From NCBI GenBank assembly GCA_036630325.1, contig CP142731.1:434001-498000 (forward strand): a stretch of 64,000 nucleotides of DNA. The letters run 5' to 3'. Below the pieces are notes generated by a model. It saw only the letters and a program-made list of their open reading frames with translations. It did no database searches and was not told where the DNA came from. Below, in pieces: positions 17,931 through 57,055 of this stretch; positions within the stretch are counted from its first letter, which is position 1, and each line of letters begins with the position of its first letter. Position numbers and translations under genes: made by a program. This DNA comes from Vairimorpha necatrix. Lineage: Eukaryota.

Positions 17931-18359
17931 GTTTGGCCAGAAAATAAAATACATCAAACGTAATCCTATTAAATTATTTTATTTAGTTGTAGTTATTCTT
18001 CGCAAACTACAATTAGAAAATCTTCACGCTTAATGTATGTATGGTAGTAACTTCTAATTTATTTTTACTTTTTAATATACATTTACTGTGTAAATATTTC
18101 AAAATTAAATTTTACGCATTTAAAAACTAAATTATCTGCGACTGAAAGATTTAATTGTTGGATGTCTGGTGTAGTTTATATAAAGTTGATTTTATGAGTT
18201 TTATCATTAATTAGTAGAATGTAAATACAATATATTATTATATGCTACGTTAAAAAATCGTAAAACCAATATCTTGGGTTTTTATATTTGTTTGTTTATG
18301 TTTCGTATTGACAACAAAGTGTTTCGTATCTCTATAAAAAAAACAACACATTGTAAACA

Positions 18360-37359: not shown

Positions 37360-38627
37360 GGGAGGTGAGGTACCACAGTACCCCCCCCTCTGAGGATGTT
37401 TACTTTATTTTTTCGAACCCCAAAAACGAAGTGCAAAAAAGGTGGAGCAGGATGGGGACAAAAATTACTAAAACTTTATGATAGTAAAAATACATAATAA
37501 AATAATGAATGACTTAAAATTGAATTTTAAACCAAATTTTGTTTCTAAATATATGATATAAAAAAATTAAAATTTATACAAATTTATTTACTTTATCCTA
37601 GTTTTTATTTAATAGCGCTTAAAAATGACAGATTTCTATAGGGATGTCGAGAAAATAATGGAAAAATGATTTTAAGTACATTAGAAGGCAGATTTTGTCT
37701 ATTATGTCTTGGAAATGTACATCGACGTTTGGAAATACAAAATCAAATGCGTTGTGCCACAAAAAGATGTCGAAAAGAATATATAATTTCGAAAAAGAAG
37801 CCTTTTTTTATGCTAAATTGTCTTGGTTAAAAATATGCCAGGTTCTATATCTATTGTTTGAAAATACAACATTCAGAATGATAAAAAACCTACTTAATAT
37901 CCACAAAAAAAACAATCTATAGAATTATCAGAAAATGTAGTAAACATATAACTGGCAATAAAAAAAATAGGAAGTTCAGGTATAGTTGTAGAGATTGATG
38001 AATCTAAATTCGGAAAGAGAAAATACAACAAAGGCCAGAAAGTTGACGGTGTGTGGGTAATTGGGATGGTGGAAAGAACAGCCGAAAGAAGTCTAGTGCT
38101 TCTAAAAGTAAAAAACAGAAAAGCCGAAACTTTTGAAAGATTAATAAAAAAATTTGTAAAACCGGAAGTATTATATTTACCGACTGTTAGAAAGGTTATT
38201 AAATTTAAATTAATTGGGGTTGTACGAACACTACACTGTTAACCATTCTCTTGGTTTTATAAATCCAGAGAATGGTGTTCATACTAACACGATTGAAGGG
38301 ACATGGGCTGGTGTCAAAAGAGTGATTCCTGCCAGACATCGGACTGAAAAGGATATAAATCGTTATCTTAATTTATTTACTTTTAAAAGAAATAAACCTA
38401 TAAATACGTTCGAAATGTTAATAATTAAAGGAATTTTACTAATTCATCTTATTTTAAAATCAATTTTTATATCTAAATATATAATTAATTATGCATTTTT
38501 ACTATTATAAAGTTCTAGTAATTTTTGTCCCCTCCATGCTCCTCCTTTTTTTGCACTTCGTTTTGGAGGTTCGAAAAATAAAGTAAACACCCTCAGAGGG
38601 GGGGGGGTACTGTGGTATCTTACACCC
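37360..38627 (+). mobile_element. Merlin DNA transposon with frameshifted transposase
   Basis: ~110-bp imperfect TIRs starting GG; 8-bp TSD CAAGAAAT; VEIDESKFGKRKYNKG, VNHS, HTNTIEGTW motifs. Confidence 0.92.
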
Positions 38628-38841
38628 CAAGAAATTAATAAGAGCAATAACCAACACAAAGAAAACGGTTAGAAAAATAAAAAGAAATTTAATAAAAATA
38701 TATTAGAAATTTATTTAAAAAATGGGGATCTAACCCCGGCTCATCACAAGTATAAATACCCCTAGGAATGTACTTAGTATTGATATACGCAACTAGAGTA
38801 TAGAGTTTCATGAACTTAGATGGAGCAAATTTCAAAGTACC

Positions 38842-41800
38842 TGTGACACGGGCTGCTCAGTGTGTCTAAAATGAGTTTTTACTAAACTGTTTATCTGTTT
38901 GTCGCTCTCTCATAACTCGGCGAAGGGCTGGAAATTCATCCTTTTATGTTTAATTTTTAATTAATGTCAAAGTGGTCAAGAATAGGAGGGAAAAGTATTC
39001 TAATAAAGAAAATCTTGAGCTTATGGCATTATAGATAAAAACATACACTTTATGGTTCGTCTTTTGTTTGGCGAGGATGACGCATTTGTTTACGCCGCTG
39101 GCTCGGCTGTAATTGAGATTTGACAGCCGGGCGATTTGAATTTAGAAGTATTTTTTTATTTCAAGAGCCCGAGGAAGGTCGTCGTGTGACACTCTCCCCT
39201 CCTCTCGGATGATCCATTCTGTTGGATCCGATTCTTCCATTAACATGATATCCTTCCTGTTTACTTTGATGATATTTCCATCTAGTGATTGAATTTTATA
39301 ACATCCACCCTTTAGCACTTCGGTAATTTTATAAATTCTTCAAACTTTGTGGCCAATATGTTCATTTTCTCAACTGCTGTTTTTTTTCTCCATATTATGT
39401 CTCCTTCTTGGAGATCCTCTGTATCGTTTCCTTTTTTTATTTTACTGATTTCTGCTTGTCTAATATTTTTCTCTCTTTCTAACCATAATTTCCGTGCCAA
39501 ATTTATTCTTTCGAATATTAGATCATTCGGTTCTTCGCTATCTATTATTTCATCATTGATGCTTGTCTGCATGTTTGGGACTCGTCCGTATAGTAGTTCG
39601 TATGGGGAAACTTTCGTTGCAGCCCTGGGGGATAATCTTACCGCATATAAAACGTATGGTAGATATTCATCCCAGTTGGTACTTATCATCTTAGCTAGCT
39701 TCCCAATTAAAGTTTGGTTTAATCTCTCCGTTGCACCGTTACATTTAGGATTAAAGGCTAAGTAGTTAATTTTTTTGATCCCATTATTTCGCAAACCTTT
39801 TTTACTGTCGAGTTTACAAATTCTTTCCCTTGATCGGAGATAATTTCTTTTGGTGGCCCGTGTTGTGTGAATATTTCATTTAGAATGAATTTCGCAACAT
39901 TTATCGCTGTCTTTGATTTTATAGCTTGGCCAAAGGCCACCTTGTAAGATAATCTGTAGCACAACTATATATCTGTTTACATCCGTCGTTTTTGGTAACG
40001 GGCCTACTAAGTCTATCCCGATTTTATCTAGTGGGTTAGTAAATTGGATTCTGAACTTTGTAATTTCTGCGGCCCTTTGTTGAATTTGTTGCATAATTCG
40101 CAGTTTTTTATTGTATCTTTAATATCTTTGTACATCCAGTCCAAGCAACTTGTCTGAGGACCAATGTATATGTTGCTTCTACTCCTCCATGTCCACAGTC
40201 GCAATGAATTCTAAACATCAATTCAAGTTTTTTTGTCTTCGATAAATCTGGTCTTTTCTTGGTTAATTTTATGTTATATATGATTTTTTTGCTTAGTGTA
40301 TCTGCGATTATGTTTTCTGAACCTTTTATGTGTTCTACCACAAAATTAAAATCTTGAATCTGTAGTATCCATCTCATCAGTCTCCCGCTTGTCTCTTAAA
40401 GACTTAACAGCCATTGTAATGATTTGTGGTCTGTTCTTGTGGTGAACTCGTTAGATAAGTATATTCTACTTTTTTTACTCGCCCATAAAATTGCAAGGCA
40501 TTCCTTTTACGTTACTGTGTAGTTTTTTTCTGCTGGTGACAATTTTCTTTACAGGAAAAATATGGGCCATAGTCCGTCTTCGTATTCTTGTATTAGCGCA
40601 GCTCCTACGGCCAAATCTGCTGCATACGTGTATAGTATAAATCTCTTTTTGAAATCTAGTAACGTTAGTACTACTGAATCAATGATCTCTTATTTTACTT
40701 GGAGAAACATTTGTCTTGTCTTATCGTTAAATCTTAATTTATCAGCTTTTTCCCCTTTGATGCTTTCGTATAACGGAACCATCTTGGCCGCATAATTTTT
40801 TATAAATCGGCTGAAAAAGGATGTAAATCCCATCCATGCTCTAACGGATTTCTTCGTTTTCGGCTCTGCAAATTTTAAAGCTTTGGTTTTCTGTTTCGGG
40901 GGTATTATCATTTCGCCCTTCGTTATCTCGTAGAATAGAAATTCTACTTTGGTTTTGAAGATATTGCATTTTTTATGTTCAGTTTGGAACCAATGTCTTT
41001 TATAATTCGGAATGCCGTGTCTAAGTGTAAAAGGCGTTCTTCTTTGGTTTTTGAATAGATTAGAACATCCTCCAGATAAATTACTACAAATTTATGTAGT
41101 ATTTCTTTGAATAGCCTATTCATAATTTTCTGGAAAGTAAATGGTGCGTTTATTGATCCAAACGGCATTCGTTTCACAGAAGATGCCTTCTCTTGTGTAA
41201 AATACCGATTTCTTCTTATCCCCATCTCTTAGATATACTTGGTGATAACCACTCTTCATGTCTAACGTGGTGTAGTACAGTGCTCCAGATAGTGAATCTA
41301 AGGTTTAATCGATTGTGGGATTGGATGCTCCATTTTAACTGTTAATTTATATAATTTGCGGCAATCAATGCAGAACCTAGGCTTTTACCTTATTTCTTTA
41401 CTATTACTACAGATGAAATGAAATCGCTATTACTTTATTCAATAAGCCCACACTCTAAAATTTTATTTACTTCTTTCTTAAACTCATGTTCTTCCATAGA
41501 ACTTTTTTATTTCACACATGTTATTTGACCGGGCAGTGGATAAGTTCGATCGTGTGCTGTAAGTCTAATGTATTCTTTGTGCTGCTTTCTTTAAAAATTT
41601 ATTATATTTGTTTAACATGCTTCGTATTTCGTCGATGTGTTCTTTAAAAAAAAGTTTTATCTAATTTCTAATCTTCTATATTAACTTCTGGTGCTTTTTC
41701 TTGTTGTTCATGTACCTGTTTTGAAACTAAGACTATCCTTTGTTCGTTTAGGTTCTTATTTTTCTTTCTGTTTGGTTATATATTTTGAAAGGTCTATTTC

Positions 41801-42030
41801 GGGGAATCCAAGAATAATTTCCTCGTCGACGTTTTCTAGCACTTGACATTATGAGGTTTTATGTCTTTCTTTATTTTTATGTATGGGGGTTTGTCCATAT
41901 ATTTTCATTTGCCCACTTATTCCCTTGATTGTAAATTTTGCTACAGTTATCTGTAATTTACATCTCCCTGCTATATTCTTTCTGATTATTGACTCAGCTG
42001 CTCCTATAATTAAAAATGTGTTTATTTTTC
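38842..42030 (-). mobile_element. Degenerate 5'-truncated Ty3/gypsy element related to the 27.9-kb element
   Basis: 3' LTR 38842-39191; PPT 39192-39206; integrase (IGIDLVGPLP, HGPPKEIISDQG), RH and RT (MPFG, IYLED) fragments. Confidence 0.88.
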
Positions 42031-42244
42031 TGTCAAAACTATCATAGAATTTTCTAGAGAAATATTTGTTATAAATAAAATCTCAGAAAGGAAGGGCACA
42101 AAAAAAAGGAGACATATGAGAGAAGAAGAGACTAAACAAGCTAAAGGAGCTTTGAACAACATATAATAATAAATAAAGATATTTATATTAAAAAAATTTT
42201 AGAGTTGTATTTACTCACCGGGGAAGTTGGCCCTAGATACCACA
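42031..42244 (+). mobile_element. Partial LTR related to the LTR of the 42578-44844 element
   Basis: Shares tgtcaaaact..., aaggaagggcac and terminal gataccaca with that LTR, in the opposite orientation. Confidence 0.7.
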
Positions 42245-42577
42245 GTACTTTATCAATTACTAATTTTGTTTTAGCAACTTCACCTTTTAGCTCTTTATTT
42301 ATTTCCTCCATATGCCTTTATACTACCGATAATTTTTAGCGTTGTTCTTTGGTCAAATATAATTTCTCTGTATTATTATCTTCATATCTATTAAAGAGCT
42401 CTTTATTACTCAAAACAAGACCTAATTTATATACTACATGTTTTTCCAACCAAGATTTAAATTCATCTTCCAAATTTTTAATGTCTCTAATTCTAATTGA
42501 CACGCTTCTGGCATTTCTATCGTAAAATTTCTATATTCTCTCAGTGTATTTATCAACAATGCAAATATCGAACAAAC

Positions 42578-44844
42578 TGTGGTATCCCGGGGAAACCCTC
42601 CCGGTTATAAAGTAATATTCTAAAATACTTTTAATAAATTGTTTTTTATTTGTTACAGTCCCTCTGGACTCTCTAACATGACGCTCTTTGGTCCTCTCAT
42701 CCATCTCCTTTTATGTGCCCTTCCTTTTCTGAAAATATATTTATAGTAAATTTTATTCATGAAAATTCAATGAGAGTTTTGACAGGGAGAGAAATAAAAT
42801 AAATGTTGAAGACTAACAGTCTACAACATCCTGCCCCCTCTCAAAGCTTTAGCTGTTTCCTGTGAAACCATCCTACTAATCCATGTACTTTGTACCATAA
42901 TCCATTTTTTCCCTTTTTGCACACCTTGTATGGTCCTATAAATTTTTTATCAAGTTTGTTTCTTGAAAAATTCTTCACATAAACAATGTCTTCGTTTTTT
43001 GGCACCTGGTCATAAATTTTTTACCTTGATCATTTTATTTCTAGATCTCTCTGTATTGGTATTTCCCTTTTTTTCTAAAAGGATCATAAAATCTTATATC
43101 GGTACTTTTATCTCGATATTTTACTACAGTATCGAACTGCTCTTTTAATTTTTTATTAGTAGTTTTAACAGCATTACATTCGCCTACTACTTCCATAATT
43201 TTATTATTTTTAATCCAACTACCTTTTCCAAATGCTTTATTTCTTTCATTCTTTGGTTTATTCCTGATATATTTAATATTAAAATCTTTAGTTTTCGCTG
43301 TATAATTTTTTACTTTTATCTTATCTTCTTTTTCGATTTTTTTATCTTCCACTATGCAAATTCTTTCAATCATTGCCTTGTCTGATGTCTTTTCTTCTAT
43401 TTCTTGGTATTCAATAAATTTAATCAATTTATTATCACACATTACCACTTTATTTTTGTAGTCTAGAATACAATTATTACCAAATAAAAAATCTCCACCT
43501 AAGATTACCTCATGCATACATTTATCAAAAATATATGGCTTAATAGTGTAATCTCTATCTACACCTTCAAATTTAAAATTAAATTCTGTTGATCTATTAG
43601 TAGCCATCACCTCGCCATTTGCTATAACTGTTTTAATTAACTTATTCTTTTTTGACTTTAAATTTAATTTATGGACTAGTTCTTTAGATATGAAGCTTCT
43701 GCTAGCTCCACTATCAAGTAATGTTTTTATTTTTAAGCCATTTATTTCGGCTCTTACCCTCGTTTCACTGATGGGATCTTTCACTTCTTCCATAATATTC
43801 ATTTCATCACTTCTTGTTTGGCGGTTATCATAATGCGCCTTTTTATCTTTATTTAGAAAACAATCAACTGAGTTGTGCCCATTGTGCTTACAATATCTGC
43901 ACCATTTCTTTTGTACAGGGAAATTATTGTCCCTAAAATTATTAGTAGCTTCTTCGTAGTTTCTCATATCCATGTTGTTGTTTCTTAACTTTAAAATTTC
44001 TTCCTCCATCGTCTTTAACTTCTTCATATATGCATCCAAATTATGCACATCAAGACTTTCAATTAGTATTCTCTTCGTTTTGCTACCTAAACCCTTCTTG
44101 AAGCATTCCCATAGCTTCCTGTTGTATTCTTCTCTGCTTATCTTATGGGCAATACTATAATATTTTATATAACTATTGATGTATTCATAATACTCACTTA
44201 TCGACTCAAAATTTTCTTGTCTTGCACTGGATAATTTATCAATCCATTCTTCCGCTCTATCAATACTATAAACTCTACTTAGAATTCTTTCGGTAATTTT
44301 ACTTAATTCTCCTTTAAATACTTTATCATCAATTGACTTATCACTTATTAAATCTCTTAGGATGAGCTCATACTGCTCACTGTTCCATTTATTTCTTAAA
44401 CTTATTTTTTCGAATGTTTCTAGCCATTCACACATATCAAAACTATAAATATCCTCTATGATATTTAACTCGGTCTCGATCTTCATATCCGTTCCTATAA
44501 CGGTGTAACTTAATTTCACTTTCTTCTTGTTAACCTCACTATGGTTAATCTTTTTGTAGCTCGTGCTCAAAATACTCGCACTTGAATTCAAGCTGTGGTA
44601 TCCCGGGGAAACCCTCCCGGTTATAAAGTAATATTCTAAAATACTTTTAATAAATTGTTTTTTATTTGTTACAGTCCCTCTGGACTCTCTAACATGACGC
44701 TCTTTGGTCCTCTCATCCATCTCCTTTTATGTGCCCTTCCTTTTCTGAAAATATATTTATAGTAAATTTTATTCATGAAAATTCAATGAGAGTTTTGACA
44801 GGGAGAGAAATAAAATAAATGTTGAAGACTAACAGTCTACAACA
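42578..44844 (-). mobile_element. Non-autonomous 2.27-kb LTR element encoding only Gag and protease
   Basis: 251-bp LTRs (44594-44844; 42578-42828) with no difference found by eye; TSD CAAAC; PPT 42829-42842; no RT, RH or IN core. Confidence 0.92.
43041..44720 (-). CDS. Gag-protease polyprotein (559 aa)
   Basis: CCHC knuckle WCRYCKHNGHNSVDC; LLDSGAS; ILGGDFL; starts inside the 5' LTR. Confidence 0.88.
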   Translation of the reverse strand: MDERTKERHVRESRGTVTNKKQFIKSILEYYFITGRVSPGYHSLNSSASILSTSYKKINHSEVNKKKVKLSYTVIGTDMKIETELNIIEDIYSFDMCEWLETFEKISLRNKWNSEQYELILRDLISDKSIDDKVFKGELSKITERILSRVYSIDRAEEWIDKLSSARQENFESISEYYEYINSYIKYYSIAHKISREEYNRKLWECFKKGLGSKTKRILIESLDVHNLDAYMKKLKTMEEEILKLRNNNMDMRNYEEATNNFRDNNFPVQKKWCRYCKHNGHNSVDCFLNKDKKAHYDNRQTRSDEMNIMEEVKDPISETRVRAEINGLKIKTLLDSGASRSFISKELVHKLNLKSKKNKLIKTVIANGEVMATNRSTEFNFKFEGVDRDYTIKPYIFDKCMHEVILGGDFLFGNNCILDYKNKVVMCDNKLIKFIEYQEIEEKTSDKAMIERICIVEDKKIEKEDKIKVKNYTAKTKDFNIKYIRNKPKNERNKAFGKGSWIKNNKIMEVVGECNAVKTTNKKLKEQFDTVVKYRDKSTDIRFYDPFRKKGKYQYREI

Positions 44845-46045
44845 CAAACATACCTAGAATCGCTCCCTATTTTCATACCAAGATCTGGATATATTTTTTT
44901 TTCATTTTTATGTTTAGGAATTTCCACGAATTTAGACTCAAGGGGTATAATCTTAACCCGCCTCCATAATGCATAATCAGTTGAGGAGAAGAAAGACAGA
45001 TCGTCCATGGCAATAACAAAATTAGTTCTTAATTTAAATCTTACTATAAAATTATCATATAAATTTCGAGCTGATATTTCATCTGAACCACATAATTTTT
45101 TAATGAATTCTGTTTTCAATTTACCAGCCTCTGGTTCAGAAACAAATGCTACCTTAATTGTTTTTAGTCCCTTGACAACGGGATTTGCAGTATTCCCGTT
45201 ATTACTTTCATTCGAAAAAAAACTTGACTTTAAAGTATCTGAAAACCTTCCAAAAACTAATGATAAAGAACGCATTAAAAGACTCTTTCCATCACTTCCT
45301 ACTCCTGTAAAAAATAATAAATTATCATTTGGTTTCCTACTATCCAACCAGTTTGCCATAGTGATTACTGCATATTTAAATACATTGGGATCAGAGAAAA
45401 TTGACTTTAACAGACTAAATGCCTTATGTGTATCTTCATCTTTTTTATAGTCAAAGTCGAAGCATTTGGAAAATAAATCGGCATCGGTGTATGCCCGACC
45501 CAAATACGTCTTCAAATCATATACGCATGTCTTCATCGGCAACACGTAAAGTCTTTGTCAAGTTTTTCTTCAAAACTCGAATCATCCATAGATAAGTATA
45601 ATCCCTACATGGCCTCCCCAGCCAAGCCTGCTCGGTCTATATCAGTCACAAATCTGTACCTTGCCCTTGCTAAATGGACTTCAATCTCATCACTTTGTAC
45701 AAAGTCAGTGAATGCCCGTAAAAAAATCCTTTAATGAATTAACAATAGCTGAATTAAGGCCTTTACTAGACACCTTCTTCCATATATACCTTTCTCGTTC
45801 AAAGAGTTGTAAGTTAGACAATTTAAATTTTTTAAAATAAGATGACAATTTAGATATTTCCTCCATTACTTCACCAACTGGTGTTCTAATGATCTTCAAT
45901 AATAATTTCATCTCGCTTTCTGTATATTTAGATATTATTTCATCCATTAACAATATTTGCTCTAAATTATCACACTTAGATTCACTTCTAGGAATCGCAG
46001 GTGGATTAATTTTAATTAACTTATTATAAATTTTGCTGTTATCTT

Positions 46046-49000
46046 TGTGGTAGACTACCACCTAGTAATCAGCAATGTAACCAATAATCAGCTTTTAAAC
46101 AGTTTCATGTTGAAACTCAAGATTCTCATCAATAATCTAAAACAATAGTTTCATAATAAAATATAAAAGAGAAAATTTTGTAAATAAATATGGTTTTCAA
46201 CAGAAACAACTCTTTTAACTACTCAGCTCACTCTTCACCTTACACCGGTTACCATACGTTGAATTCAACGTTCAAAGATTCAAGACCATCTAAAGCTTCA
46301 AGAAGAAACAACATCTTATCAACTCAACCTAACTTAACAACTCTACCTCAAGAACCAACGGAAGCATTTACATTCGCTACCAAAGTAGGCGAGCAAAAAG
46401 GACCAAATATTCAAATCGAAAAATTATACGATCTCGATTTGCAAGATGTCCATAAATGGACCGATAAATACAGAAACATAATCAACTTGTCGTCAATGGA
46501 AGAACCCACAGCATTATATACGTTACATCTCTTAATCAGTCCAGAACTTCTCTATATTATAAACCCAGCATTGGATGCAGAGGAAGCACTTCAACTTTTA
46601 GTAAACCACTATTATAACCCATCAAGATTTTCAATCTTCATCAACCAACTAAGGAATTTGAATTACAAAAACTACAACAATATACAGCAGTTTACAAAAG
46701 CATTTTTAACAATTCTAACTAAGTGTAATTTATGTTTACAAATTAATGAAAGGCTCACCACTCGAGAAAAGAATGAAATTTTTTGCAGAAGCTTGCCATT
46801 TTGGATGAAACAAGAAATAGTAAGAAGTTCAGAAAACAGCAACTTTGAAAGCCTAGCTAATCTTCTAGCACCCTTGGAACTATTACGCAACTCATCAAAC
46901 TATGAACAAAGGGAAGAAAAAACTGAAAGAAGATCTCATCTAAACTATTTTAGAAAAAACTCTTGTAGTACAAATCAAGACGATTTAAGACAACATAACC
47001 GAAATTCCCAGTTCCCATCACAAAAATCTATTAATCAATGGTGCAAATACCATAAAACCACGAAACATAGCACGGAAGAATGCAGGAAGATGAAATCATT
47101 CAATCAAAATAAAAGTCATAATAATTATTCATCTTTTAACCTAGTTCGAGAAAAACCTACAACACCAGACAAAATTGAATTTATGGGAACAATAGAAGGC
47201 GCACCAGTTACGATTCTATTCGACCCTGGGGCCACACTTTCATACATTTCAGAAAAAACATCCAGAAAATTAAATTTAAAACAAATCGAAGTGGATGGAA
47301 AATTGGTCGCAGAAGTCGCAAATGGAGACACCATCAAGATCAATCATAAGACCGATATAAAATTTAGATTGGACGCAATTAAAGATACAACATTCAAACT
47401 TTCCGCATTCATTATGCCAGGCATGAGACAAGACATTACTTTAGGACTCCAATTTTTAGGAGCACAAGACTTTAAGATGGACCTGAAGGAAGGATTGATC
47501 TCATTGAACAATAAGGAAATAGAAATTCCAGGTTTTAACACGTTCTATAAAACTCATCCTGATAAAGAAATTATAGATAAAATATTTAACATTCACTCAG
47601 AACTCATTAGTAACAAAATAAAAAAAGCTAAAAAAGAGAATAAGGAACTAGGAAAAATTGAGACGATTACACATAGTATTTCACTTAATTCTGCGCAACC
47701 AATAACCTCGAAACCGTACGCGATACCGACCAAATTGTATCAACAAGTTAAAGACGAAATTCATAATTTACTTAAAAATGGAATTATTCGAGAAAGTTAC
47801 TCACCCTTCGCATCTCCCGCTTTTCCAATCCAAAAGAAGAATGGCAACATAAGACTCGTTATCGATTATCGTAAACTTAATAGTATCACAGTAAAAGAGG
47901 CCTTTCCCTTCCCTAGCTTAAAGGACCAAGTTCACGGCTTATATGGATGCTCTAAATTTTCTCAGTTAGACTTAAACAAAGGTTATTATCAAATTCTCGT
48001 ATCAGAAGAGGACATACCGAAGACCTCCTTCATCACTCCGTTTGGTCAATACGAATTTTTACGGATGCCTTTCGGATTAACAAATGCACCAAGAACGTTC
48101 CAACGAGCAATGCAATCCATACTCGGCGACTTACCTTTTGTCAAAATATTTTTAGACGATATTTTAATACATAGTAAATCTACAGAAGAACATGCTATAC
48201 ACCTAAAAACAGTTATAGAAAAACTTCAAGGAGCAAATTGTTCTATCAATTTCGACAAATCCGTATTTAACAAGAGCGAAGTTAAATATTTAGGATTGAT
48301 TATCGACAAGGAAGGAATTAGAGCCGACACATCGAGAATTACATCTATTGATTTAATTAATAATCCAACTACAGTAAAGCAAGTACAAAGATTACTTGGA
48401 ATCTTTAATTGGTTTCGAGATTTTATTCCAAATTTAAGCACTAAACTCGCAAAACTGAACGCAAAATTATGTAAAAAAGACAAAGAAAAATTCTGTTGGA
48501 CAGACGAAGACACAAACATCAAACAAGAAATTATCCAAATTATTAAATCACAAATACTATTACATCATGCCGATCCCGAAAAAGAATTTCAGCTAAGAAC
48601 AGATGCAAGCGATCATGGTATAGGAGCTATCTTATGTCAAGACACAAAAATAATAGGAATCTTTAGCAAGAAATTCACATCTCCCGAAAAGAATTACACA
48701 ACTATTGAAAAAGAACTTTTAGCTATCATTGAAGGCCTTAAACATTTTAAAAATCTGATATTTGACACTAAAGTAACCATTTACACAGATTCAAAAAATT
48801 TAACCTTTCTTGGCTCAGCAAGCTCACAACGTGCCCAAAGATGGAAAATACTTCTAGAGGAATTTAATTCTTCAATAAAGCATATAAATGGCAGTGAAAA
48901 CCAAGGACCCGATTACTTTTCGAGAATATACAGCATCCAATCGATTACCAAAAATTCGAAATTTCCCATCTTTTACACTCTGAAATCATTATACAAGGCC

Positions 49001-50303
49001 CAAACCGATAACCCTGTGCCGCAACACATTAAAAATAATCTAGGGTTAAACTGTACACAATTTGACAATTACAATCTTCTCCATTCAAATTATAAAATAT
49101 ATGTTCCTGAAAGAAACGCCAAAAAATACATAAAAGAAATTCATGAATTCCTCAATCATGCCGGAATATCTCGGTTATACAGTACAATTGCCAAATTTCT
49201 TAAAATTTATCAGTTACGAAGTCTCATCGAAGAAGTAATAAAGAATTGCAGAGTTTGTGAAATAAATAAACCTAGGAGAACAAATTATGGCTACGTTTCT
49301 GGTTTCCTACATTCTACAACAAAGTTAAAAAACATTGCATCGGATTTATATGGACCGATAGATCTTCGTCATTTCCAAGAGGAAGGTAAAGGCTATATAC
49401 TATCAATAGTCGATAGCCACAGCAGATATACGAAATTAATTTTACTGTTGTCTATTACAGGGGAAAAGGTGGTTAAAGAAATAGAATCAAAATGGATCAA
49501 AGAATTCGGACCACCATCGAGTATACTTACTGATCAAGGACGTCAGTATACTTCAAGTGAATTTGAAAGATTTTGCCAAAGGTATCACATTAAGCATAAA
49601 ATGACATCAACCTACAACCCTACTTCTAACAGCATAACAGAAAGAACAAACCAACTCATCGGATTAGGACTACGATGCAATTTGGACAATAATATTGGTG
49701 ATGTGATTCACAAGATTCAGGAGGGAATAAATAACAGTCACAACCGATCAGTCGGATTTTCGCCAAACGAAATAATTAACAACCATAGTATCTTTGACCC
49801 AATTCAAAGACCTTTAAATTGCAGCGAGGGAAATGTAAACCGGATAGCAATTACAGAAGCGAAGAAAAATAATATTATATTAAATTCAAAACGGCAAACA
49901 CAATTTAAATTTAAAATTGGAAATTACGCTTATGAAAAAAATATATTTAGGACGAAGTTAGACCCTCATTGGTTAGGACCCTTTTTAATTATGGACGTGA
50001 AAGCGAACAACAATACAGTATTGGTAGATAAAATCGACAAGTTACAGTGGATCAATATAAAACGACTTAGACCCTCTCGACGGGGGGAAACCTGTGGTAG
50101 ACTACCACCTAGTAATCAGCAATGTAACCAATAATCAGCTTTTAAACAGTTTCATGTTGAAACTCAAGATTCTCATCAATAATCTAAAACAATAGTTTCA
50201 TAATAAAATATAAAAGAGAAAATTTTGCAAATAAATATGGTTTTCAACAGAAACAACTCTTTTAACTACTCAGCTCACTCTTCACCTTACACCGGTTACC
50301 ATA
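46046..50303 (+). mobile_element. Intact young Ty3/gypsy element, palindrome-PBS type
   Basis: 211-bp LTRs (46046-46256; 50093-50303) with one mismatch seen; TSD ATCTT; PPT ggggggaaa; termini TG..TA. Confidence 0.97.
46190..50134 (+). CDS. Single-ORF Gag-Pol polyprotein (Gag, PR, RT, RNase H, integrase)
   Basis: 1314 aa uninterrupted; WCKYHKTTKHSTEEC, LFDPGAT, FLDD, TDASD, HHCC, DLYGP/TDQGRQY/ITER, GPF. Confidence 0.96.
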   Translation: MVFNRNNSFNYSAHSSPYTGYHTLNSTFKDSRPSKASRRNNILSTQPNLTTLPQEPTEAFTFATKVGEQKGPNIQIEKLYDLDLQDVHKWTDKYRNIINLSSMEEPTALYTLHLLISPELLYIINPALDAEEALQLLVNHYYNPSRFSIFINQLRNLNYKNYNNIQQFTKAFLTILTKCNLCLQINERLTTREKNEIFCRSLPFWMKQEIVRSSENSNFESLANLLAPLELLRNSSNYEQREEKTERRSHLNYFRKNSCSTNQDDLRQHNRNSQFPSQKSINQWCKYHKTTKHSTEECRKMKSFNQNKSHNNYSSFNLVREKPTTPDKIEFMGTIEGAPVTILFDPGATLSYISEKTSRKLNLKQIEVDGKLVAEVANGDTIKINHKTDIKFRLDAIKDTTFKLSAFIMPGMRQDITLGLQFLGAQDFKMDLKEGLISLNNKEIEIPGFNTFYKTHPDKEIIDKIFNIHSELISNKIKKAKKENKELGKIETITHSISLNSAQPITSKPYAIPTKLYQQVKDEIHNLLKNGIIRESYSPFASPAFPIQKKNGNIRLVIDYRKLNSITVKEAFPFPSLKDQVHGLYGCSKFSQLDLNKGYYQILVSEEDIPKTSFITPFGQYEFLRMPFGLTNAPRTFQRAMQSILGDLPFVKIFLDDILIHSKSTEEHAIHLKTVIEKLQGANCSINFDKSVFNKSEVKYLGLIIDKEGIRADTSRITSIDLINNPTTVKQVQRLLGIFNWFRDFIPNLSTKLAKLNAKLCKKDKEKFCWTDEDTNIKQEIIQIIKSQILLHHADPEKEFQLRTDASDHGIGAILCQDTKIIGIFSKKFTSPEKNYTTIEKELLAIIEGLKHFKNLIFDTKVTIYTDSKNLTFLGSASSQRAQRWKILLEEFNSSIKHINGSENQGPDYFSRIYSIQSITKNSKFPIFYTLKSLYKAQTDNPVPQHIKNNLGLNCTQFDNYNLLHSNYKIYVPERNAKKYIKEIHEFLNHAGISRLYSTIAKFLKIYQLRSLIEEVIKNCRVCEINKPRRTNYGYVSGFLHSTTKLKNIASDLYGPIDLRHFQEEGKGYILSIVDSHSRYTKLILLLSITGEKVVKEIESKWIKEFGPPSSILTDQGRQYTSSEFERFCQRYHIKHKMTSTYNPTSNSITERTNQLIGLGLRCNLDNNIGDVIHKIQEGINNSHNRSVGFSPNEIINNHSIFDPIQRPLNCSEGNVNRIAITEAKKNNIILNSKRQTQFKFKIGNYAYEKNIFRTKLDPHWLGPFLIMDVKANNNTVLVDKIDKLQWINIKRLRPSRRGETCGRLPPSNQQCNQ

Positions 50304-50943
50304 ATCTTATTTATTATAATCTCGAAATTGTTGATTAACCTATAAGGTTCTGAATCTTTATACGCCAACAGTTATAACACGATCTTTAGGAGGAGAACTC
50401 ACAACATGCGTATTTTCTCTCAAAACATGTTTTAAATCATTCTTATTAGTAAATGCATTTAAAATAACATGATTCAAAAATTTTGTAGCTGGAATTTCTA
50501 TCACACCTTCCCCATCATATTCAAAACAAAACACCTTTATTACATGTTGATTGCCAGTAATCATCAACTGCTGCTAAATACAACCTACCTGATTCAAAAA
50601 TCAAATCTATTATCTTACAATCTAAAACATTTTCAGTTCTCATTTCTAGACCACCTTTACATTCTTCATCATAGCATTTTAAATTAATGTTATCTTTAAA
50701 AATCAAAATCATTCCATGATTTCGTTTATGGGGTCGTTCTTTTACTATACATGTACCCTCGTAAGGCACAATCACGCAATCGGTTTTAATGATATGTACT
50801 AATAATTTGATATAAGGCAGTCTATAAGCCGCCAAAATTGCTACAGATCAATTAAAAAAGCACATTTTACAATAAAAACCCCGTCTACATTCAAACTCGT
50901 TTGTTTTCTGGGAGTCGCAGGTGGCCTTCCTGGCATTATTGAA

Positions 50944-53738
50944 TATCACCGTCCGGAGCGGACGCAGGGGAAAATGCTTACTGGAGAAGGGTAAAAAATT
51001 AAGTAAAAAAATCGTTGGTTTTTCTTTGTAATTTGTATATTAAAAGTATAAATTTTAAAAGCATGAAAATAAAATTGGATAACAATGAAAGACAAGAAGT
51101 TTTTGTCTTTTTACAGACTGGTATCGTTCCAATAAGGTAGGTTGAAAGACAAGTAAGAGACGCTTTTAGGAAAAAAGCAAAAAAATTTATCCTTTTTGAG
51201 GATGTAATTGATGGTATCACAGAGCTCACGGTGAGATTTAAAGTAGGTCTAAAAAGAACGTTAAGATTCTTTACCACAAACGAGCAATGTTTACAAATTG
51301 ATCCACGTCTCAAATGGGCATTCGGGACGGGACAGATTATTTCCATTATTGCAAACAAAAGTCTACGACGCAACCAAAAATGATATCCAGAGAGTTTTGA
51401 ATAGCTGTGGAATATGTCAATCAAAGAGAAATCTAGTAACTAGACCAGTTATTAGACCAATTTTATCAAAATATCCAAGGGAAAGATATGTTGCAGACTT
51501 GATTGATCTCCGTCTAAATCACGAACTCAATGAAGTATATAAATGGTTATTAAATGTTGTAGATTCTTTTACCAAATTTTGTTGGACGGTACCAAAATAT
51601 GACAAATCAAGTATTAGTGTAGGGAATGCTTTTGAAACATTGTTTGGGACGTTTGGCCCTTGTTTTATACTTCATACTTATAACGGCAGAGAATTTGTAA
51701 ATCAAGTACTCGTCGATTTATGTCAGAAATATGAAATAAGACACGTAATGGGGAGAGCTAGATGTCCATGGATACAAGGACAGATAGAACGATGCAATAA
51801 AACAATAAAGTGGATGATTGCATCTACTTACAGGACAAAAAATATTTTGGGTCAATGGACCAAAGTACGTGAAGAAGTTACCTGGTCATATAATAATTTA
51901 AGACACATTACTACGAGACAAACACCATTCTCTTTAATGTTTGGAAGACCCATCAGGGAAATAATGAACGAATCTAGAATCACGGGTATTCTAGATTCGT
52001 TTAATAGCGAAAATCAAAAACAATAAAGTGAGAACGAAGAACGCGCCGAAGAAAGTTTATCAGATGTTCTAGATTGCAACACCAATGAAGAAATACAGTA
52101 ACTATATGCTCTTAATAAACAAAACCTTTTTTTAAATGAAATTTATTATGAAGGAGCTAGAATTCATACACAAACTGCTGCAGATAGAATGGTACAAAGA
52201 AGTATGTGGAGAAATGATTTCTTAGAATTTAAAATAGGAGTTAGAGTCCTTATAAGACCTTATCTGGACAACAATGTCAATACCAGAAGCCATTCGCTTT
52301 ATGAACATTTAGATGCAGAAATCTATGTTGTAACCGACATAATACAATTTAATAAAGTGAAATTATGCAGAGAAGATTATAATAGAATTATTATAGATGA
52401 AATAAGTACTAGGGATCTTAGGTTGCTTGGAAATGAATAAAGTACTAAAAATTTTGTTTATAATATTTTTCTCCTTTTTTCATTATTCCCTCCCATTATT
52501 ATAAAAAAATAGCAAAAATTTACCTCTCAAAAGATCGAGACAAAATTTGGGCAATCATTTAAGACGAACATTTGGCTAAAAACAGCTTTAGTGTAAAAAA
52601 AATGGGGGGGGGGGTCAAAATTTTTAAAAAATTGCCCCTTTTTTTAAAAAAGGAAGGGAATGCTGAGCAATGAAGAAATTATAGATTTTTATGAAAACCT
52701 ACAAAATAAAAAATATAAACAAAAATGTACAATTTGTGGTTGGAATACATCTAGAGTATCCAATGAAACAGCTTTTCTTAGATGTAAGTTTCTCAAATGC
52801 GGCCAAAGATTTTCAATATGGAATAATACTCTATTTTCAAATAGTAAGATAGATCATATTCTTATGCTGAAAATTGTTAATCTATGAACAATGGGACTTA
52901 AAGTAGCGCATATTTCTAAAATTTTGGACTGTAACATACAAAATGTAACTTCTACACTGGAAAAATTATATAAATTAAAAATATATGAGAAATATATAAA
53001 TAAAACAAAGCAAATAGGAGGCGAAAATACTATAGTGGAGATCTATGAAAGTAAAATTGGCAAAAATAAGCATCATAGGGGAAGATTAGTTAAGGGGGTT
53101 TGGTGTTTCGGTATGGTGGAACGAACCGAAGCAAAGAAGATTATATTCATAATTATAAAGAAAAGAGACAGGGATACATTATTTCCAATCATGTTTAAGC
53201 AGGTAAAATGCGAATCCGTAATTCATTCGGATATGTGGAGGGCGTATGCAACGTTAAAAAATCATTATGCGGACCATAGGACTGTGAATCACAGTCAACC
53301 CTTTAGAGACAGAGAGACAGGTGTGCATACAAACACCATAGAAGGAAATTGGAGGTCTTTAAAGGCCTCTATACCTAATAGGTGGAGGACTTATAAACTT
53401 GCTGAAATATATTTAGTTCTATATATGATTAAAAGAAACGAGAGCAAAGAAATCTTCGAAGCATTATTAAAATTATGTTTTTGATATATTTTATTTATTT
53501 TAAATTTAATTTTCATGCATTTTTATATCTTAATTATATTTTATTTTTTTTCTTCATTGCTCAGCATTCCCTTCCTTTTTTAAAAAAAGGGGCAATTTTT
53601 TAAAAATTTTGACCCCCCATTTTTTTTACACTAAAGCTGTTTTTAGCCGAACATTTATTTGTTCTTATTTTTTGGTTCGATCCTCACTGAAGAGATTTTT
53701 TTGAATTTTTTTCATGGCATCCGCTCTGGACTGTGACA
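50944..53738 (+). mobile_element. Ginger-like (retroviral-type integrase) DNA transposon A, pseudogenised, with nested Merlin
   Basis: 22-bp TIRs (tatcaccgtccggagcggacgc / gcatccgctctggactgtgaca, 18/22); integrase 51063-52440 with HHCC, ADLID, HTYNGREF, QGQIER; no RT or gag. Confidence 0.82.
52574..53648 (+). mobile_element. Merlin DNA transposon (transposase 52660-53484, one in-frame TGA)
   Basis: ~100-bp TIRs starting GG; perfect 8-bp TSD GAACATTT; HSDMWRAY and HTNTIEGNW motifs. Confidence 0.95.
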
Positions 53739-55827
53739 TTTGTCACGAGCCCAGCTGGTTACCAAAAAAAAGAATTTTTTCTAAAAATAACCTCAAAAAG
53801 GTATTTAAAACGCTCTGGGGAGTTGTTTGACAGGTTTAACATAAAACCTATTTCAATAACACTCAATATTTTAATTTAATTATAAAAAATATTCGAAAAA
53901 AAATAAAGACATTTTTCTTAAGAATTTTCACTACTGTTATTTCTAATTTTTATAAAAATTTATCTTCTATTTGGTATTTTGGATTTAAAAAACTTACAAA
54001 ATTTCAATTAATATTTTTATCAGTATAATTTTTATTATAATACGCATTTTAAAATTATACAAATATTTTCAATTATAAAAGTTGTTTGTTATAAATTTAA
54101 ATACTAATATTTTACTAAAAAAACTATATTTTAATAAATTAAAACTGGTTACACGTCGAATTATATTTCAATTTTATTTTAGAATAGTTTGTAATTGTTG
54201 AAAAGTTAAAAATATCATTTACACAATGAGTTAGTGAATATCAATGATTGGTCTTGAGCATCGTAAACAAAGATTATAAATCTAGATTTCTGTAATTAAA
54301 TTAATTGTACAATGAAAATGTGACAATCTAAAAATATTATCAGTTGTTTAAATATAATTCGATATACTAATGACACATATATTTTTTATGATGAATTATA
54401 TTAACGCTGGAATAGAAATATGATAAGTATTGTAAAAAAAAAACTAGTTTAAATTTAAAAGTAAATTATAAAGAATAAAAACTCAATTTAACAAAGCTTA
54501 ACTATTTTTTTATTTTTTTTTACCAAATTCATAAACCAAATTTCTTTAGAATCTTTAAACTTAACCTTTAACCTATTATTAGATAAAATTTCTATTACTT
54601 CTCCAGGTTCAAAATAAAACGGGCTTAATTTTGAATTTTTTGTTTTGGAATTAGCATCAAAATCTTTTTTTAATATTACTTTATCTCCTATAACAAAATT
54701 ATTGATAGAACGATGAACGCATTTTTTGTCCATTCTTAAGAGATATTTTCCGTCTACCATAGATCTATTTTCTCGCCCAAAGTCAAAATCCAAGTCTTCA
54801 TCTTTGATTTCCTCATCGTTAATACTGCTTTTACAAGTATTATATCCTGTGGTATAATGTATCATACCACATGATTGTTAAAACCAATAAATACTTAAAC
54901 GCTGATGCTTCTCCGGAACGATCAGTTATGATCGACTATTATTGGTCAGCCAAATCTTATTTCTTTCTATTGGTTACTATGTTATATAAATAGAGAAATT
55001 TTATGAACAACATGGTACAACATCAGAACGCAAACAAACACTCTTCCTTCTACAAATCAGATAAATAAAACTCTTTTCATAACAATAAACAATCCTTTCC
55101 CTCTAACTCTTTTAACTCCGGTTTTCACGGCTCTCCAAACCGTAGCATCATTGAATGCTTTCTTGCTACAGGCAAGCTTCCCGGTAAACACGCCATATCC
55201 CTTTCTTCCATAAAATAATTCAAATGGAGATTTTTTAGTTGCAGATTATACTGCGACGTTGTATTGATAAACAACTGTGTCAATGAATAAGACCCAGTTT
55301 TTATTATTTGGACCAAATTCTGCTTAGAGGTGTTTTTGTAAGTATCGAGTAATTGTTTGATTTAATCTCTCAACTTGACCTTGACTCTGAGGATGCCCGA
55401 GTCTGCCATGAACTAGTAAAATTTTATTCTGATCGCAGAATTCAGGTAAAAGTGAATTTTTAAATTCTTTACCATTATCACACTGAAGTTCACTAGCAAG
55501 CCCGTACCGATTAAAATTAAATTTTAAATGTAATAAAACTTCCGAAGCAGTTTTAGTTTTCATCACAGAAGTAAATGCATACTTAGAATACACATCTATA
55601 GCAGTAGTAACAAACTATTTCCTTCGTTTTGGTCGACATAAACCTTCATGTCTACCAGGTCGATAATAATCCTCTCAAGGGGCCTTTTAGCTAATATATG
55701 CTTGTAGGTTTCCTTTGTTTTTAGAGGTTGTGCCTGTGAACAAACATTGCACTCTTTGCAAACCTCACACACAAGACTTCTTGAAATAGTGAAGTAAAAT
55801 TACTTACACAACACACATAAACGATTG

Positions 55828-57055
55828 GGCGCTACTTCATTTTCTTGCCCCCCCCCCCCTAAAAAAAACATTAATAAAAAGATACGAAATCGTGTTATTT
55901 TTCAAATCTAAACATTTTTTTTTTTTTTTGAGGGGGGCAAGAAAATGAAGTTAAGGTATTTTTTGTCGATTTGAAAATTTTTAAATGCCTCCTGCAGATT
56001 CCTCATTAAGGGGATAAAAAATTTTAATTTTTTATCCCCTTAATGAGGAATCTGCAGGAGGCTATTCGAGAGCTAAATATCTGCGAAGATGCGTGCTTTA
56101 GGAACAATGAAGCAGCAATTGATTTTTTTTAGATAATGGTCTTCTAAAAAGATCGATTGCTTGCAGACATTGTTCGACATCAGAACGAACTGTTCTTATG
56201 AACATTAGTGGATGTTCCGGCTACATTGACGGTAAAGCTTATCGTTGTGTTAATAAAAAGTGTAGTTCGAAGAGCTCACTTAAAAATGGTACGATGTTTA
56301 AAGGAATAAGCGTTCCATTTCACAAAATTCTTAGAGCATTCTATTGCTGGGTATTTAATTATACTACTTACCAAGCAATAGATCTGTGCAAAATATGTGA
56401 AAATTCATATATTAAAATCAAGGATACAGTGATGGAAATCATTGCTTCTAAAAAGCGAAGATAGCTACCAAATTGGAGGAACTTCTGTTCGTGTACAATT
56501 TGATGAAACCGCCATATGCAACGGGTTAATTGTATCTAATCCTTCTTCAAGTTTGGATTCCATGCCTGGAATTCAATGGATTATAGGCGGCATAGTAGAA
56601 GGTAATTGTAGAGAATTTGTTCTTGAATTGCTACCTAACCGATAATCTAGTACTATAGAAGACTTTTTTAGACGCAGAGTAAAACCTGGCTCTATTATAA
56701 TTACTGATGGATACCCTTCATATCCATCAGCCTCTAGAAATTTTGGCAGTGAACATTACATAGTAAATCATTCGCTTGGATTTATAAATGCAGAAGGAGA
56801 CCACACAAATAATATAGAAAATTTGTGGTCCCATTTGAAGAATGAGTATAGATCTAGAAGTGGGCTTAAAAGGCATAGGATTAATTTATTTCTAAAAGAA
56901 TTTGCTTGGAAAAAAAGAAATATCAATCATTCTAATAATGATGATCATAGATGTGCCTTTATAAAAATTTTAGAACTTTGTAGGTTTGAATAAATAAAAT
57001 TTCCTCTAAATAATTTTTTTTTTCTAGGGGGGGGGCAAGAAAATGAAGTAGCGCC
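55828..57055 (+). mobile_element. Merlin DNA transposon inserted in the Ginger B zinc finger (transposase ~56043-56993, disrupted)
   Basis: TIR GGCGCTACTTCATTTTCTTGCCCCCC; perfect 8-bp TSD AACGATTG; VQFDETA, ITDGYPSY, HTNNIENLW motifs. Confidence 0.95.
55987..56062. repeat. Perfect 37-bp-arm palindrome with 2-nt loop over the transposase CCC motif and ATG
   Basis: gcctcctgcagattcctcattaaggggataaaaaatt-tt-aattttttatccccttaATGaggaatctgcaggaggc. Confidence 0.97.

What the first reader, a model, noticed from the sequence alone, without database searches (positions are those of the whole stretch)
42245..50936. Hidden virus-like Zn-finger + D5/SF3 helicase gene reassembled from three pieces
Seen: removing the LTR elements 46046-50303 (TSD ATCTT) and 42578-44844 (TSD CAAAC) joins three minus-strand segments into one decayed gene of about 2.15 kb. 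It reads putative start MPGRPPATPRK (50936), then C-x6-H-x-x-N...KCYDEEC, then a D5_N-like segment, the SF3 ATPase (GVGSDGKS, FVSE, ALWRRVKIIP) and a helical C-terminus. The frame reads SDSRYV|CSIFALL across the second junction; the first junction has a nearby frameshift. Established: D5-type helicases are replication proteins of nucleocytoviruses, virophages, Polinton-like viruses and some plasmids, not fungal core genes. The Zn finger pattern is that of PrimPol/UL52 primases. Inference: this is a relic of an unrecognised endogenous virus or self-replicating element in a microsporidian. No AEP catalytic domain is visible, so the architecture may itself be unusual.
Basis: partly seen in the sequence, partly recalled or inferred. 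Interest (0 to 1): 0.82.

Follow-up and report, generated by a model that had tools for sequence, protein, structure and literature searches.

The report
Transposon-shattered virus-type helicase pseudogene
A dead copy of a giant-virus-type DNA replication helicase gene sits in a microsporidian chromosome, broken up by jumping genes; it belongs to a small, already annotated but undiscussed gene family that hints at past contact between these parasites and large DNA viruses.

Summary
Two LTR retrotransposons, 42578-44844 (target-site duplication, TSD, CAAAC) and 46046-50303 (TSD ATCTT), split one minus-strand gene. Intact paralogues align colinearly across both junctions. I add a third LTR-like sequence that cuts the gene at 42244/42245, removing about 25 final codons.

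The window is Vairimorpha necatrix chromosome 6. The gene is partly annotated as VNE69_06099 'primase', a 394-aa model that splices over one retrotransposon.

The product was a UL52/PrimPol-type zinc finger (C-x6-H-x17-C-x4-C), then D5_N, an SF3 ATPase and a C-terminal domain, with no archaeo-eukaryotic primase (AEP) domain. It belongs to a four-copy V. necatrix family with relatives in V. apis. The family nests among about 950-aa AEP + Zn + D5 primase-helicases of giant-virus metagenomic contigs. A relative's model matches mpox E5, vaccinia D5 and ASFV C962R.

I found no other viral gene in the window. The published gene table lists only host or transposon neighbours for the paralogues. All four V. 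necatrix copies carry ATPase-core lesions.

Best reading: a decaying relic of a gene acquired from a large DNA virus, not a hidden multi-gene provirus. Interest is moderate.

The parts
50309..50936 (-). 5' segment of the pseudogene: putative start codon at 50936, a frame change, the zinc-finger ORF, a further frame change and stops
   Evidence: Three-frame reading. P0004 50-110 aligns to 50772-50587 with E 3.8e-13. Profile of relatives' N-termini gives E 7.5e-12.
50659..50751 (-). UL52/PrimPol-type zinc finger, C-x6-H-x17-C-x4-C
   Evidence: Read from the ORF; the spacing is the same in P0004. Pfam Herpes_UL52 scores E 0.012, 15.9 bits, below the 21-bit cut-off. The relative P0155 passes at 22 bits.
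46046..50303 (+). LTR retrotransposon B (Ty3/gypsy type, intact 1316-aa gag-pol ORF), TSD ATCTT
   Evidence: An empty-site contig in run X2 gives weak support.
44850..46040 (-). Middle segment: linker region, D5_N end and SF3 ATPase core. Two frame changes and stops lie at about 45730-45558.
   Evidence: PHROG 'DNA primase' 5.8e-22. ASFV C962R 1.3e-5. tblastn of paralogues.
45282..45305 (-). Walker A motif, GVGSDGKS
   Evidence: ORF. Aligned to the P-loop of C962R and of relatives.
42578..44844 (-). LTR retrotransposon A (gag-protease ORF only, no RT or IN), TSD CAAAC, LTRs 251 of 251 identical
42245..42577 (-). 3' segment: C-terminal domain, with one frame change near 42480 and two in-frame stops (42333-35 and 42315-17)
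   Evidence: P0003 402-444 and 427-510, and P0002 487-591, align here.
41996..42244 (.). Third LTR-like sequence (about 71% like LTR A, opposite orientation) that ends the gene. Its lower boundary is uncertain.
   Evidence: alignment; blastn, 80% over 94 nt. Helicase homology stops at 42246.

Best explanation
This is a dead paralogue, public locus tag VNE69_06099 on chromosome 6 of Vairimorpha necatrix. It belongs to a small Vairimorpha gene family that encodes an AEP-less, D5/C962R-type replicative helicase. The domain order is a UL52-like zinc finger, a D5_N collar, an SF3 AAA+ ATPase and a C-terminal domain.

The ancestral protein was the primase-helicase of a large DNA virus of the Nucleocytoviricota kind: a hexameric ring that unwinds DNA at the viral fork. 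The microsporidian lineage acquired the gene horizontally, by integration of viral DNA or by transfer. It lost the primase (AEP) domain and spread to four chromosomes. In V. necatrix the family is now decaying.

This copy was first inactivated by frameshifts and stops, or at least carries them now. It was then cut by an older LTR sequence at its 3' end and by two very recent LTR retrotransposon insertions. It has no function now.

Shown: the anatomy, the family membership, the lack of AEP, and the affinity to giant-virus-type proteins. Inferred: the direction and vehicle of transfer, and the order of the decay events.
For: Identity of the locus:
- A 100% identical stretch occurs in WUR03778.1 'primase [V. 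necatrix]'.
- The gene order AP-2 mu, RT, primase matches the window.

Junctions and colinearity.

Family:
- PHROG DNA primase, 5.8e-22.
- ASFV C962R, 1.3e-5.
- 14,442 database proteins at E<=0.001.
- An AlphaFold model of the V. apis member P0153 (pLDDT 88) matches mpox E5, ASFV PrimPol and vaccinia D5 323-785 at E 1e-21 to 1e-24, probability 1.0.

No AEP:
- Among 2551 six-frame ORFs, only 50524-50847 hits the AEP+Zn profile, and only at profile positions 251-313.
- P0004 likewise matches only positions 236-318.

Phylogeny (74 rows):
- The window copy plus three V. necatrix copies form one clade (99*).
- With V. apis, three unnamed Logan proteins and the AEP-bearing P0012 they form a 96* clade.
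- That clade nests in a 98* clade of AEP+Zn+D5 proteins. Bacillus P4-type primases lie far outside.

Viral relatives: 57 of 79 IMG/VR loci encode about 950-1000-aa proteins with the same AEP+Zn N-terminus, and 42 of 79 contig names carry 'GVMAG'.

Decay:
- Window copy: motif C reads AMD where relatives have AMN.
- P0002: SNPE for SEPE, AME for AMN, VWSQF for ARNLY.
- P0003's gene model lacks the P-loop lysine region.
- P0004's gene model lacks about 33 aa before the P-loop and the C-terminus.
Against: - No named cultured virus is among the near relatives. The closest proteins (P0009-P0013, P0017, P0026, P0033) come from unnamed 2.8-4.9-kb contigs whose organism is unknown, so a viral donor is inferred from more distant GVMAG-type relatives (28-33% identity).
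- No hallmark giant-virus gene was seen in the 10-kb flanks of six IMG/VR loci: 0 of 44 ORFs scanned, out of 66 ORFs of 200 aa or more.
- Intact catalytic motifs in V. apis P0153 and in P0007, and spore RNA counts of 16-1920 for the four V. necatrix genes, leave room for a retained host function elsewhere in the family.
- Pfam D5_N and Herpes_UL52 hits on the window pieces are below the curated cut-offs.
Confidence: 0.72

Rival explanations
1. The gene is the surviving part of a multi-gene endogenous virus, or of an unrecognised self-replicating or mobile element, that lies here and at the paralogous sites.
For: - The family is dispersed on four chromosomes.
- Two of the four copies lie in transposon-rich regions.
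- VNE69_10050 has four 'hypothetical' neighbours of unknown nature.
- An integrase gene starts about 200 bp from the helicase start, on the other strand.
Against: - No capsid, packaging ATPase, polymerase or recombinase other than transposon ones appears among the window's large ORFs and flanks.
- That integrase is a stand-alone family of about 300-330 aa, also present in Dictyocoela and Nosema granulosis. In V. necatrix it sits on contigs of 1,094,101 and 1,297,884 bp, not on those of the helicase paralogues.
- VNE69_03300 sits between an AAA ATPase and aquaporin among core genes.
- The 'integrase' beside VNE69_07096 is a Ty3 pol with RT and RNase H.
- Paralogues are only 42-58% identical, which does not look like a recently active repeat.
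Confidence: 0.1
2. The family is a domesticated host gene family (an ATPase/helicase or DNA-binding factor used by the microsporidian), and this locus is simply one dead duplicate.
For: - V. apis P0153 and the unnamed P0007 keep Walker A, Walker B, motif C and the arginine pair.
- The P0153 model is well folded, pLDDT 88.
- P0002 is an uninterrupted 624-aa ORF with a spore RNA count of 1920.
- The family is kept in at least two species.
Against: - All 4 of 4 V. necatrix copies have lesions in the ATPase core or gapped gene models.
- Among the 20 hits whose sources I looked up, only V. necatrix and V. apis are named microsporidia.
- RNA counts are low beside neighbouring genes, for example 97 against 89,430 and 2,776.
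Confidence: 0.15
3. The gene derives from a bacterial phage or plasmid P4-type primase, as the database names 'phage primase' and 'P4 family' suggest.
For: Source names for relatives read 'P4 family phage/plasmid primase-like' and 'phage primase'. PHROG phage families match at 1e-20 to 1e-22.
Against: - Bacillus P4-type primases form a distant outgroup on a branch of 1.87.
- The UL52-type zinc finger and the C-terminal ...RG[YWF]K.L tail are shared with the roughly 950-aa AEP+Zn proteins of GVMAG contigs.
- The best structural matches are poxvirus D5/E5 and ASFV C962R.
Confidence: 0.03

Closest known systems
Nucleocytoviricota D5-type primase-helicases (vaccinia D5, mpox E5, ASFV C962R; GVMAG homologues)
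   Same: D5_N collar, SF3 ATPase with Walker A, Walker B, motif C and an arginine pair, and a C-terminal domain. A UL52-like zinc finger lies upstream, as in the roughly 950-aa GVMAG-type relatives. The fold of a family member matches these structures at E about 1e-23.
   Different: There is no AEP primase domain. The gene is chromosomal in a microsporidian, solitary, and in this copy broken by three LTR sequences plus frameshifts and stops. Sequence identity to viral relatives is only about 30%.
Endogenous giant-virus elements in fungi and protists (for example the Rhizophagus viral region and Mycodnaviridae insertions)
   Same: A virus-type replication gene is embedded in a fungus-related genome. 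D5-like helicase-primase is one of the marker genes used in that work (passage of PMC13533422, listing and abstract of PMC10640383).
   Different: Those regions hold many hallmark genes (MCP, PolB, A32). Here only one gene type is present, in four diverged copies, with none of those neighbours.
PrimPol / herpesvirus UL52 zinc finger
   Same: A Cys-His-Cys-Cys pattern with a 6-residue first spacer and a 4-residue last spacer. Pfam Herpes_UL52 matches the window weakly and matches the relative P0155 above its cut-off.
   Different: In PrimPol and UL52 the finger follows an AEP catalytic domain. Here it stands at the N-terminus, about 60 residues after the start.

Membership tests
SF3 helicase, D5/C962R type | Walker A P-loop (G-x4-GK[ST]) | tested here: met
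   GVGSDGKS at 45305-45282, aligned to the P-loop of C962R and relatives.
SF3 helicase, D5/C962R type | Walker B acidic residue and the arginine pair after motif C | tested here: met
   AFVSEPE and ALWRRV are present and aligned to relatives.
SF3 helicase, D5/C962R type | Motif C asparagine | tested here: not met
   The window copy reads AMD where 9 of 10 sequences in alignment A3 have N (P0002 has E). This fits a dead copy; the family as a whole meets the feature.
SF3 helicase, D5/C962R type | Overall fold of collar, ATPase and C-terminal domain | tested here: met
   Tested on the V. apis relative P0153, not on the window copy. Foldseek gives E 7.8e-24 to mpox E5, 2.9e-23 to ASFV PrimPol and 3.1e-21 to vaccinia D5 323-785.
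Pfam D5_N (PF08706) | Score above the curated cut-off (22.4 bits) | tested here: inconclusive
   The window piece scores 15.6 bits, E 0.021. Paralogues P0002 (28.9), P0004 (26.7) and P0007 (27.3) pass; P0003 (19.7) and P0153 (21.8) do not.
UL52/PrimPol-type zinc finger (PF03121) | C-H-C-C ligands with the family's spacing, and a score above 21 bits | tested here: inconclusive
   The ligands are present (C-x6-H-x17-C-x4-C). Pfam gives 15.9 bits, below the cut-off. My own profile of 37 relatives gives E 7.5e-12. The relative P0155 scores 22 bits.
Primase-helicase (AEP + D5), as the name 'primase' implies | AEP catalytic domain | tested here: not met
   No AEP match anywhere in the window: the best non-zinc-finger hit has E 0.72 among 2551 ORFs. 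P0004 matches only the zinc-finger part of the profile. No AEP Pfam family hits any of 5 microsporidian-clade proteins.
Endogenous Nucleocytoviricota element | Other hallmark genes (major capsid protein, A32 ATPase, PolB, VLTF3) nearby | tested here: not met
   Pfam on the window's ORFs of 130 aa or more and on the flanking ORFs gives only host genes and transposon proteins (ORF lists). Short or very decayed remnants were not excluded.
Ty3/gypsy LTR retrotransposon (the inserted elements) | Paired LTRs, 5-bp TSD, PR-RT-RNaseH-IN order | tested here: met
   Element B meets all features. Element A has LTRs, a TSD and gag-PR only, so it is a non-autonomous derivative.

The most novel reading that the evidence does not exclude
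Vairimorpha/Nosema microsporidia were, or still are, hosts of (or co-residents in insect cells with) a large DNA virus or a helicase-driven replicon. The AEP-less Zn-finger-D5 helicase, intact in V. apis and in unnamed relatives, would then be the replication protein of a still unrecognised element, and the V. necatrix copies would be its fossils. That would be the first trace of a DNA virus association for Microsporidia.
Probability: 0.15. Interest if true: 0.75.

Novelty: new member of a known kind. Interest (0 to 1): 0.42.

Why it matters
No DNA virus of microsporidia turned up in my four literature searches and passage look-ups. The two genome papers I checked never use the word 'primase' in their main text.

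A four-copy family of giant-virus-type helicase genes in Vairimorpha is therefore a concrete lead. It points to past contact between these insect parasites and large DNA viruses, either viruses of the parasite itself or viruses sharing the insect cell.

There are two practical points as well. The public gene model VNE69_06099 treats a retrotransposon as an intron and should be flagged as a pseudogene. The name 'primase' is also misleading, because the primase domain is absent.

Tried and rejected
- Whole genome: not held, so I could not run tBLASTn for further copies or read the paralogues' flanks. I used the published gene table instead.
- Search with P0010 for named viral relatives: only 5 proteins, none named.
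- Metagenome scan with alignment A6: 401 relatives among 595 stretches. The best 80 are 21-32% identical to P0012, no closer than the IMG/VR hits, so no context was gained for the nearest clade.
- Flanks of six IMG/VR loci: 0 of 44 ORFs scanned matched a capsid, packaging ATPase or PolB family. Found instead: Bro-N/T5orf172, sugar epimerases/dehydratases, kinases, UvdE, caspase and a methyltransferase.
- Integrase next door as part of the element: rejected.
- VNE69_01065 'Zf-primase' (a ProtNLM guess): it is a C2H2 zinc-finger protein and unrelated.
- The conserved C-terminal tail beyond the third LTR: not found. The stretch after 38612 gives no convincing match. I could not resolve how the LTR-like pieces at 41996-42244 and 38612-38748 and the minus-strand pol remnants at 41700-39312 belong together; the LTR orientation does not fit a single element.
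- RNA runs: no RNA holder listed.
- Contigs of run X1 reach 26-30 letters into the LTRs at three junctions, under the tool's 31-letter rule.
- Rfam and tRNA scans around 50500-51500: nothing above chance.
- The two 766-aa ORFs at 9434-11734 and 13337-15637 are unrelated to each other.
Full report
**What the window is.** The 242-aa minus-strand ORF 44829-45557 is 100% identical to part of WUR03778.1, 'primase [Vairimorpha necatrix]', a 394-aa model on a 1.28-Mb contig. The published gene table lists AP-2 mu (VNE69_06097), a reverse transcriptase, then 'primase' VNE69_06099, then transposon genes. This matches the window, where an AP mu-type ORF lies at 18357-19343 and transposons follow. So the window is chromosome 6 of this microsporidian, a parasite of moths. 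No whole genome was available to me.

- Element A is 42578-44844, with 251-nt LTRs that are 251 of 251 identical and CAAAC on both sides.
- Element B is 46046-50303, with 211-nt LTRs 99.5% identical and ATCTT on both sides.
- B encodes an uninterrupted 1316-aa protease-RT-RNaseH-integrase protein. A encodes only gag-protease.

Intact paralogues align to the three minus-strand segments in order and without overlap:
- P0004 50-110 maps to 50772-50587.
- P0004 214-525 maps to 45965-44895.
- P0003 38-396 maps to 46040-44859, 402-444 to 42571-42443, and 427-510 to 42497-42246.

P0003 leaves the middle segment at residue 396 and resumes at 402 directly across element A. This confirms the reading SDSRYV|CSIFALL.

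One 315-nt contig of run X2 lies on 50307-50599 and then, after 3 other letters, at 46040. That is an empty site for element B. By subtraction only about 19 letters lie on the far side, so this is weak support.

**Additions to the anatomy.**
- A third LTR-like sequence, about 71% like LTR A and in the opposite orientation, begins at 42244. Helicase homology stops at 42246. The last 25 or so codons, which in relatives hold a conserved ...RG[YWF]K.L tail, are missing. I could not find them beyond the transposon debris.
- Apart from the insertions, the reading frame changes at least four times: near 50850, near 50550, at about 45720 and 45600, and near 42480.
- Several in-frame stops occur, for example at 42333-35 and 42315-17.
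- The public 394-aa model avoids these by 'introns'. One of them spans the whole of element A. The zinc-finger segment beyond element B is not part of that model.

**What the gene encoded.**
- The middle ORF matches phage 'DNA primase' PHROGs at 5.8e-22.
- It matches ASFV C962R at 1.3e-5 over the ATPase core.
- It matches 14,442 database proteins at E<=0.001.
- Walker A (GVGSDGKS), Walker B (VSEPE) and the arginine pair (WRR) are present. Motif C reads AMD where relatives have AMN.
- The 5' segment carries C-x6-H-x17-C-x4-C, identical in spacing to paralogue P0004. Pfam Herpes_UL52 matches weakly, at 15.9 bits against a cut-off of 21.
- A profile built from the N-termini of 37 relatives matches it at E 7.5e-12.
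- An AlphaFold model of the intact V. apis member (pLDDT 88) matches mpox E5, ASFV PrimPol and vaccinia D5 323-785 at E 1e-21 to 1e-24 over about 500 columns.

**No primase domain.** The profile of relatives covers an AEP domain (positions 1-235) and the zinc finger.
- Among 2551 six-frame ORFs of the window, only 50524-50847 matches, and only at positions 251-313. The next best hit has E 0.72.
- P0004 matches only positions 236-318.
- The putative start at 50936 aligns with the start of P0004, about 60 residues before the finger.

The AEP-less architecture is therefore real in two independent copies.

**Relatives.** The annotated family in V. necatrix has four members:
- VNE69_03300 (P0003)
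- VNE69_06099 (this locus)
- VNE69_07096 (P0002)
- VNE69_10050 (P0004)

V. apis has two ('primase' and 'phage primase').

In a 74-row tree the four V. necatrix sequences form one clade (99*). They join V. apis, three unnamed Logan proteins and the AEP-bearing P0012 at 96*. That group nests in a 98* clade of AEP+Zn+D5 proteins, and Bacillus P4-type primases are a distant outgroup.

In IMG/VR, 113 of 161 candidate stretches encode relatives. Of the 79 loci kept, 42 have contig names with 'GVMAG'. This label denotes giant-virus metagenome bins; I recall that meaning, it comes from no call. Of the same 79 loci, 57 encode proteins of about 950-1000 aa with the same AEP+Zn N-terminus.

The very nearest proteins come from unnamed contigs of 2.8-4.9 kb, so their carriers are unknown. 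A metagenome scan gave nothing closer.

**Context argues against a hidden provirus.**
- The window's other large ORFs are host genes (RPN2, Nup98, a kinase, AP mu) or transposon proteins (Ty3/gypsy, IS1595/Merlin-like).
- The integrase that starts about 200 bp from the helicase start belongs to a stand-alone family of about 300-330 aa. It is also found in Dictyocoela and Nosema granulosis, and in V. necatrix it sits on other chromosomes.
- By the published table, VNE69_03300 lies among core genes (SMC4, RPA43, RPN9, AAA ATPases, aquaporin).
- VNE69_07096 lies between two complete USP paralogues, beside a Ty3 pol.
- VNE69_10050 lies among transposons and hypothetical genes.
- Spore RNA counts are 97, 367, 1920 and 16 for VNE69_03300, VNE69_06099, VNE69_07096 and VNE69_10050.

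**Decay across the family.**
- P0002 has SNPE for SEPE, AME for AMN and VWSQF for ARNLY.
- P0003's model lacks the P-loop lysine region.
- P0004's model lacks about 33 aa before the P-loop and the C-terminus.
- V. apis P0153 and the unnamed P0007 keep all motifs.

So in V. necatrix all 4 of 4 copies look defective, while the family may still be functional elsewhere.

**Literature.** Four searches (listings and abstracts only) found no paper on such genes in microsporidia. The V. necatrix and N. apis genome papers have 0 occurrences of 'primase' in the main text. The Mycodnaviridae paper has 0 occurrences of 'microsporidia'. From the supplement of PMC10759460 I read passages and part 20 only.

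**Verdict.** This is a real, well-described pseudogene of a giant-virus-type D5 helicase lacking its primase domain. It is one of a small, annotated but undiscussed Vairimorpha family. It is most likely a relic of a gene acquired from a large DNA virus, and I found no evidence of a larger viral or self-replicating element.

Noticed in passing
window 42336-45965 (public model VNE69_06099 / WUR03778.1): The public 394-aa 'primase' gene model bridges frameshifts with introns, and one intron contains the whole LTR element A. The locus should be annotated as a pseudogene, and no primase domain is present.
   Followed up: yes
window 51141-52440 (+), and 54488-55800 (-): A stand-alone H2C2 + rve integrase with no RT or RNase H upstream, of a family with proteins of about 300-330 aa in V. 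necatrix, Dictyocoela muelleri and Nosema granulosis. It is distantly like insect KRBA2-type proteins and may be a Ginger-like DNA transposon. A 32%-identical fragment lies inverted at 55327-55614.
   Followed up: partly
window 38612-42244: Transposon debris below the gene: an LTR-like piece at 41996-42244, minus-strand Ty3 RT and integrase remnants at 41700-39312, and another LTR-like piece at 38612-38748. The LTR orientation does not fit the pol remnants, so more than one element is nested here.
   Followed up: partly
window 37659-38510, 52648-53484, 56123-56993, 58278-58931: Four IS1595/Merlin-like DDE transposase copies or fragments surround the locus.
   Followed up: partly
window 27894-32222 and 33153-37217: Two further LTR retrotransposons. 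The first has 300-nt LTRs 100% identical. The second has 197-nt LTRs 97% identical and a fragmented pol.
   Followed up: no
window 50816-51100 and 42304-42607: In run X1 the summed contig depth jumps to about 20,000 and about 5,000, against 30-45 elsewhere. The first spot is an A/T-rich stretch just upstream of the putative start. This is probably low-complexity or high-copy sequence. Rfam and tRNA scans found nothing.
   Followed up: partly
V. necatrix VNE69_07095-07098 (from the paper's table, not in the window): Paralogue VNE69_07096 and a Ty3 pol lie between two complete ubiquitin carboxyl-terminal hydrolase genes, each with a USP domain at 86-365. This suggests a local duplication around the helicase gene.
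   Followed up: no
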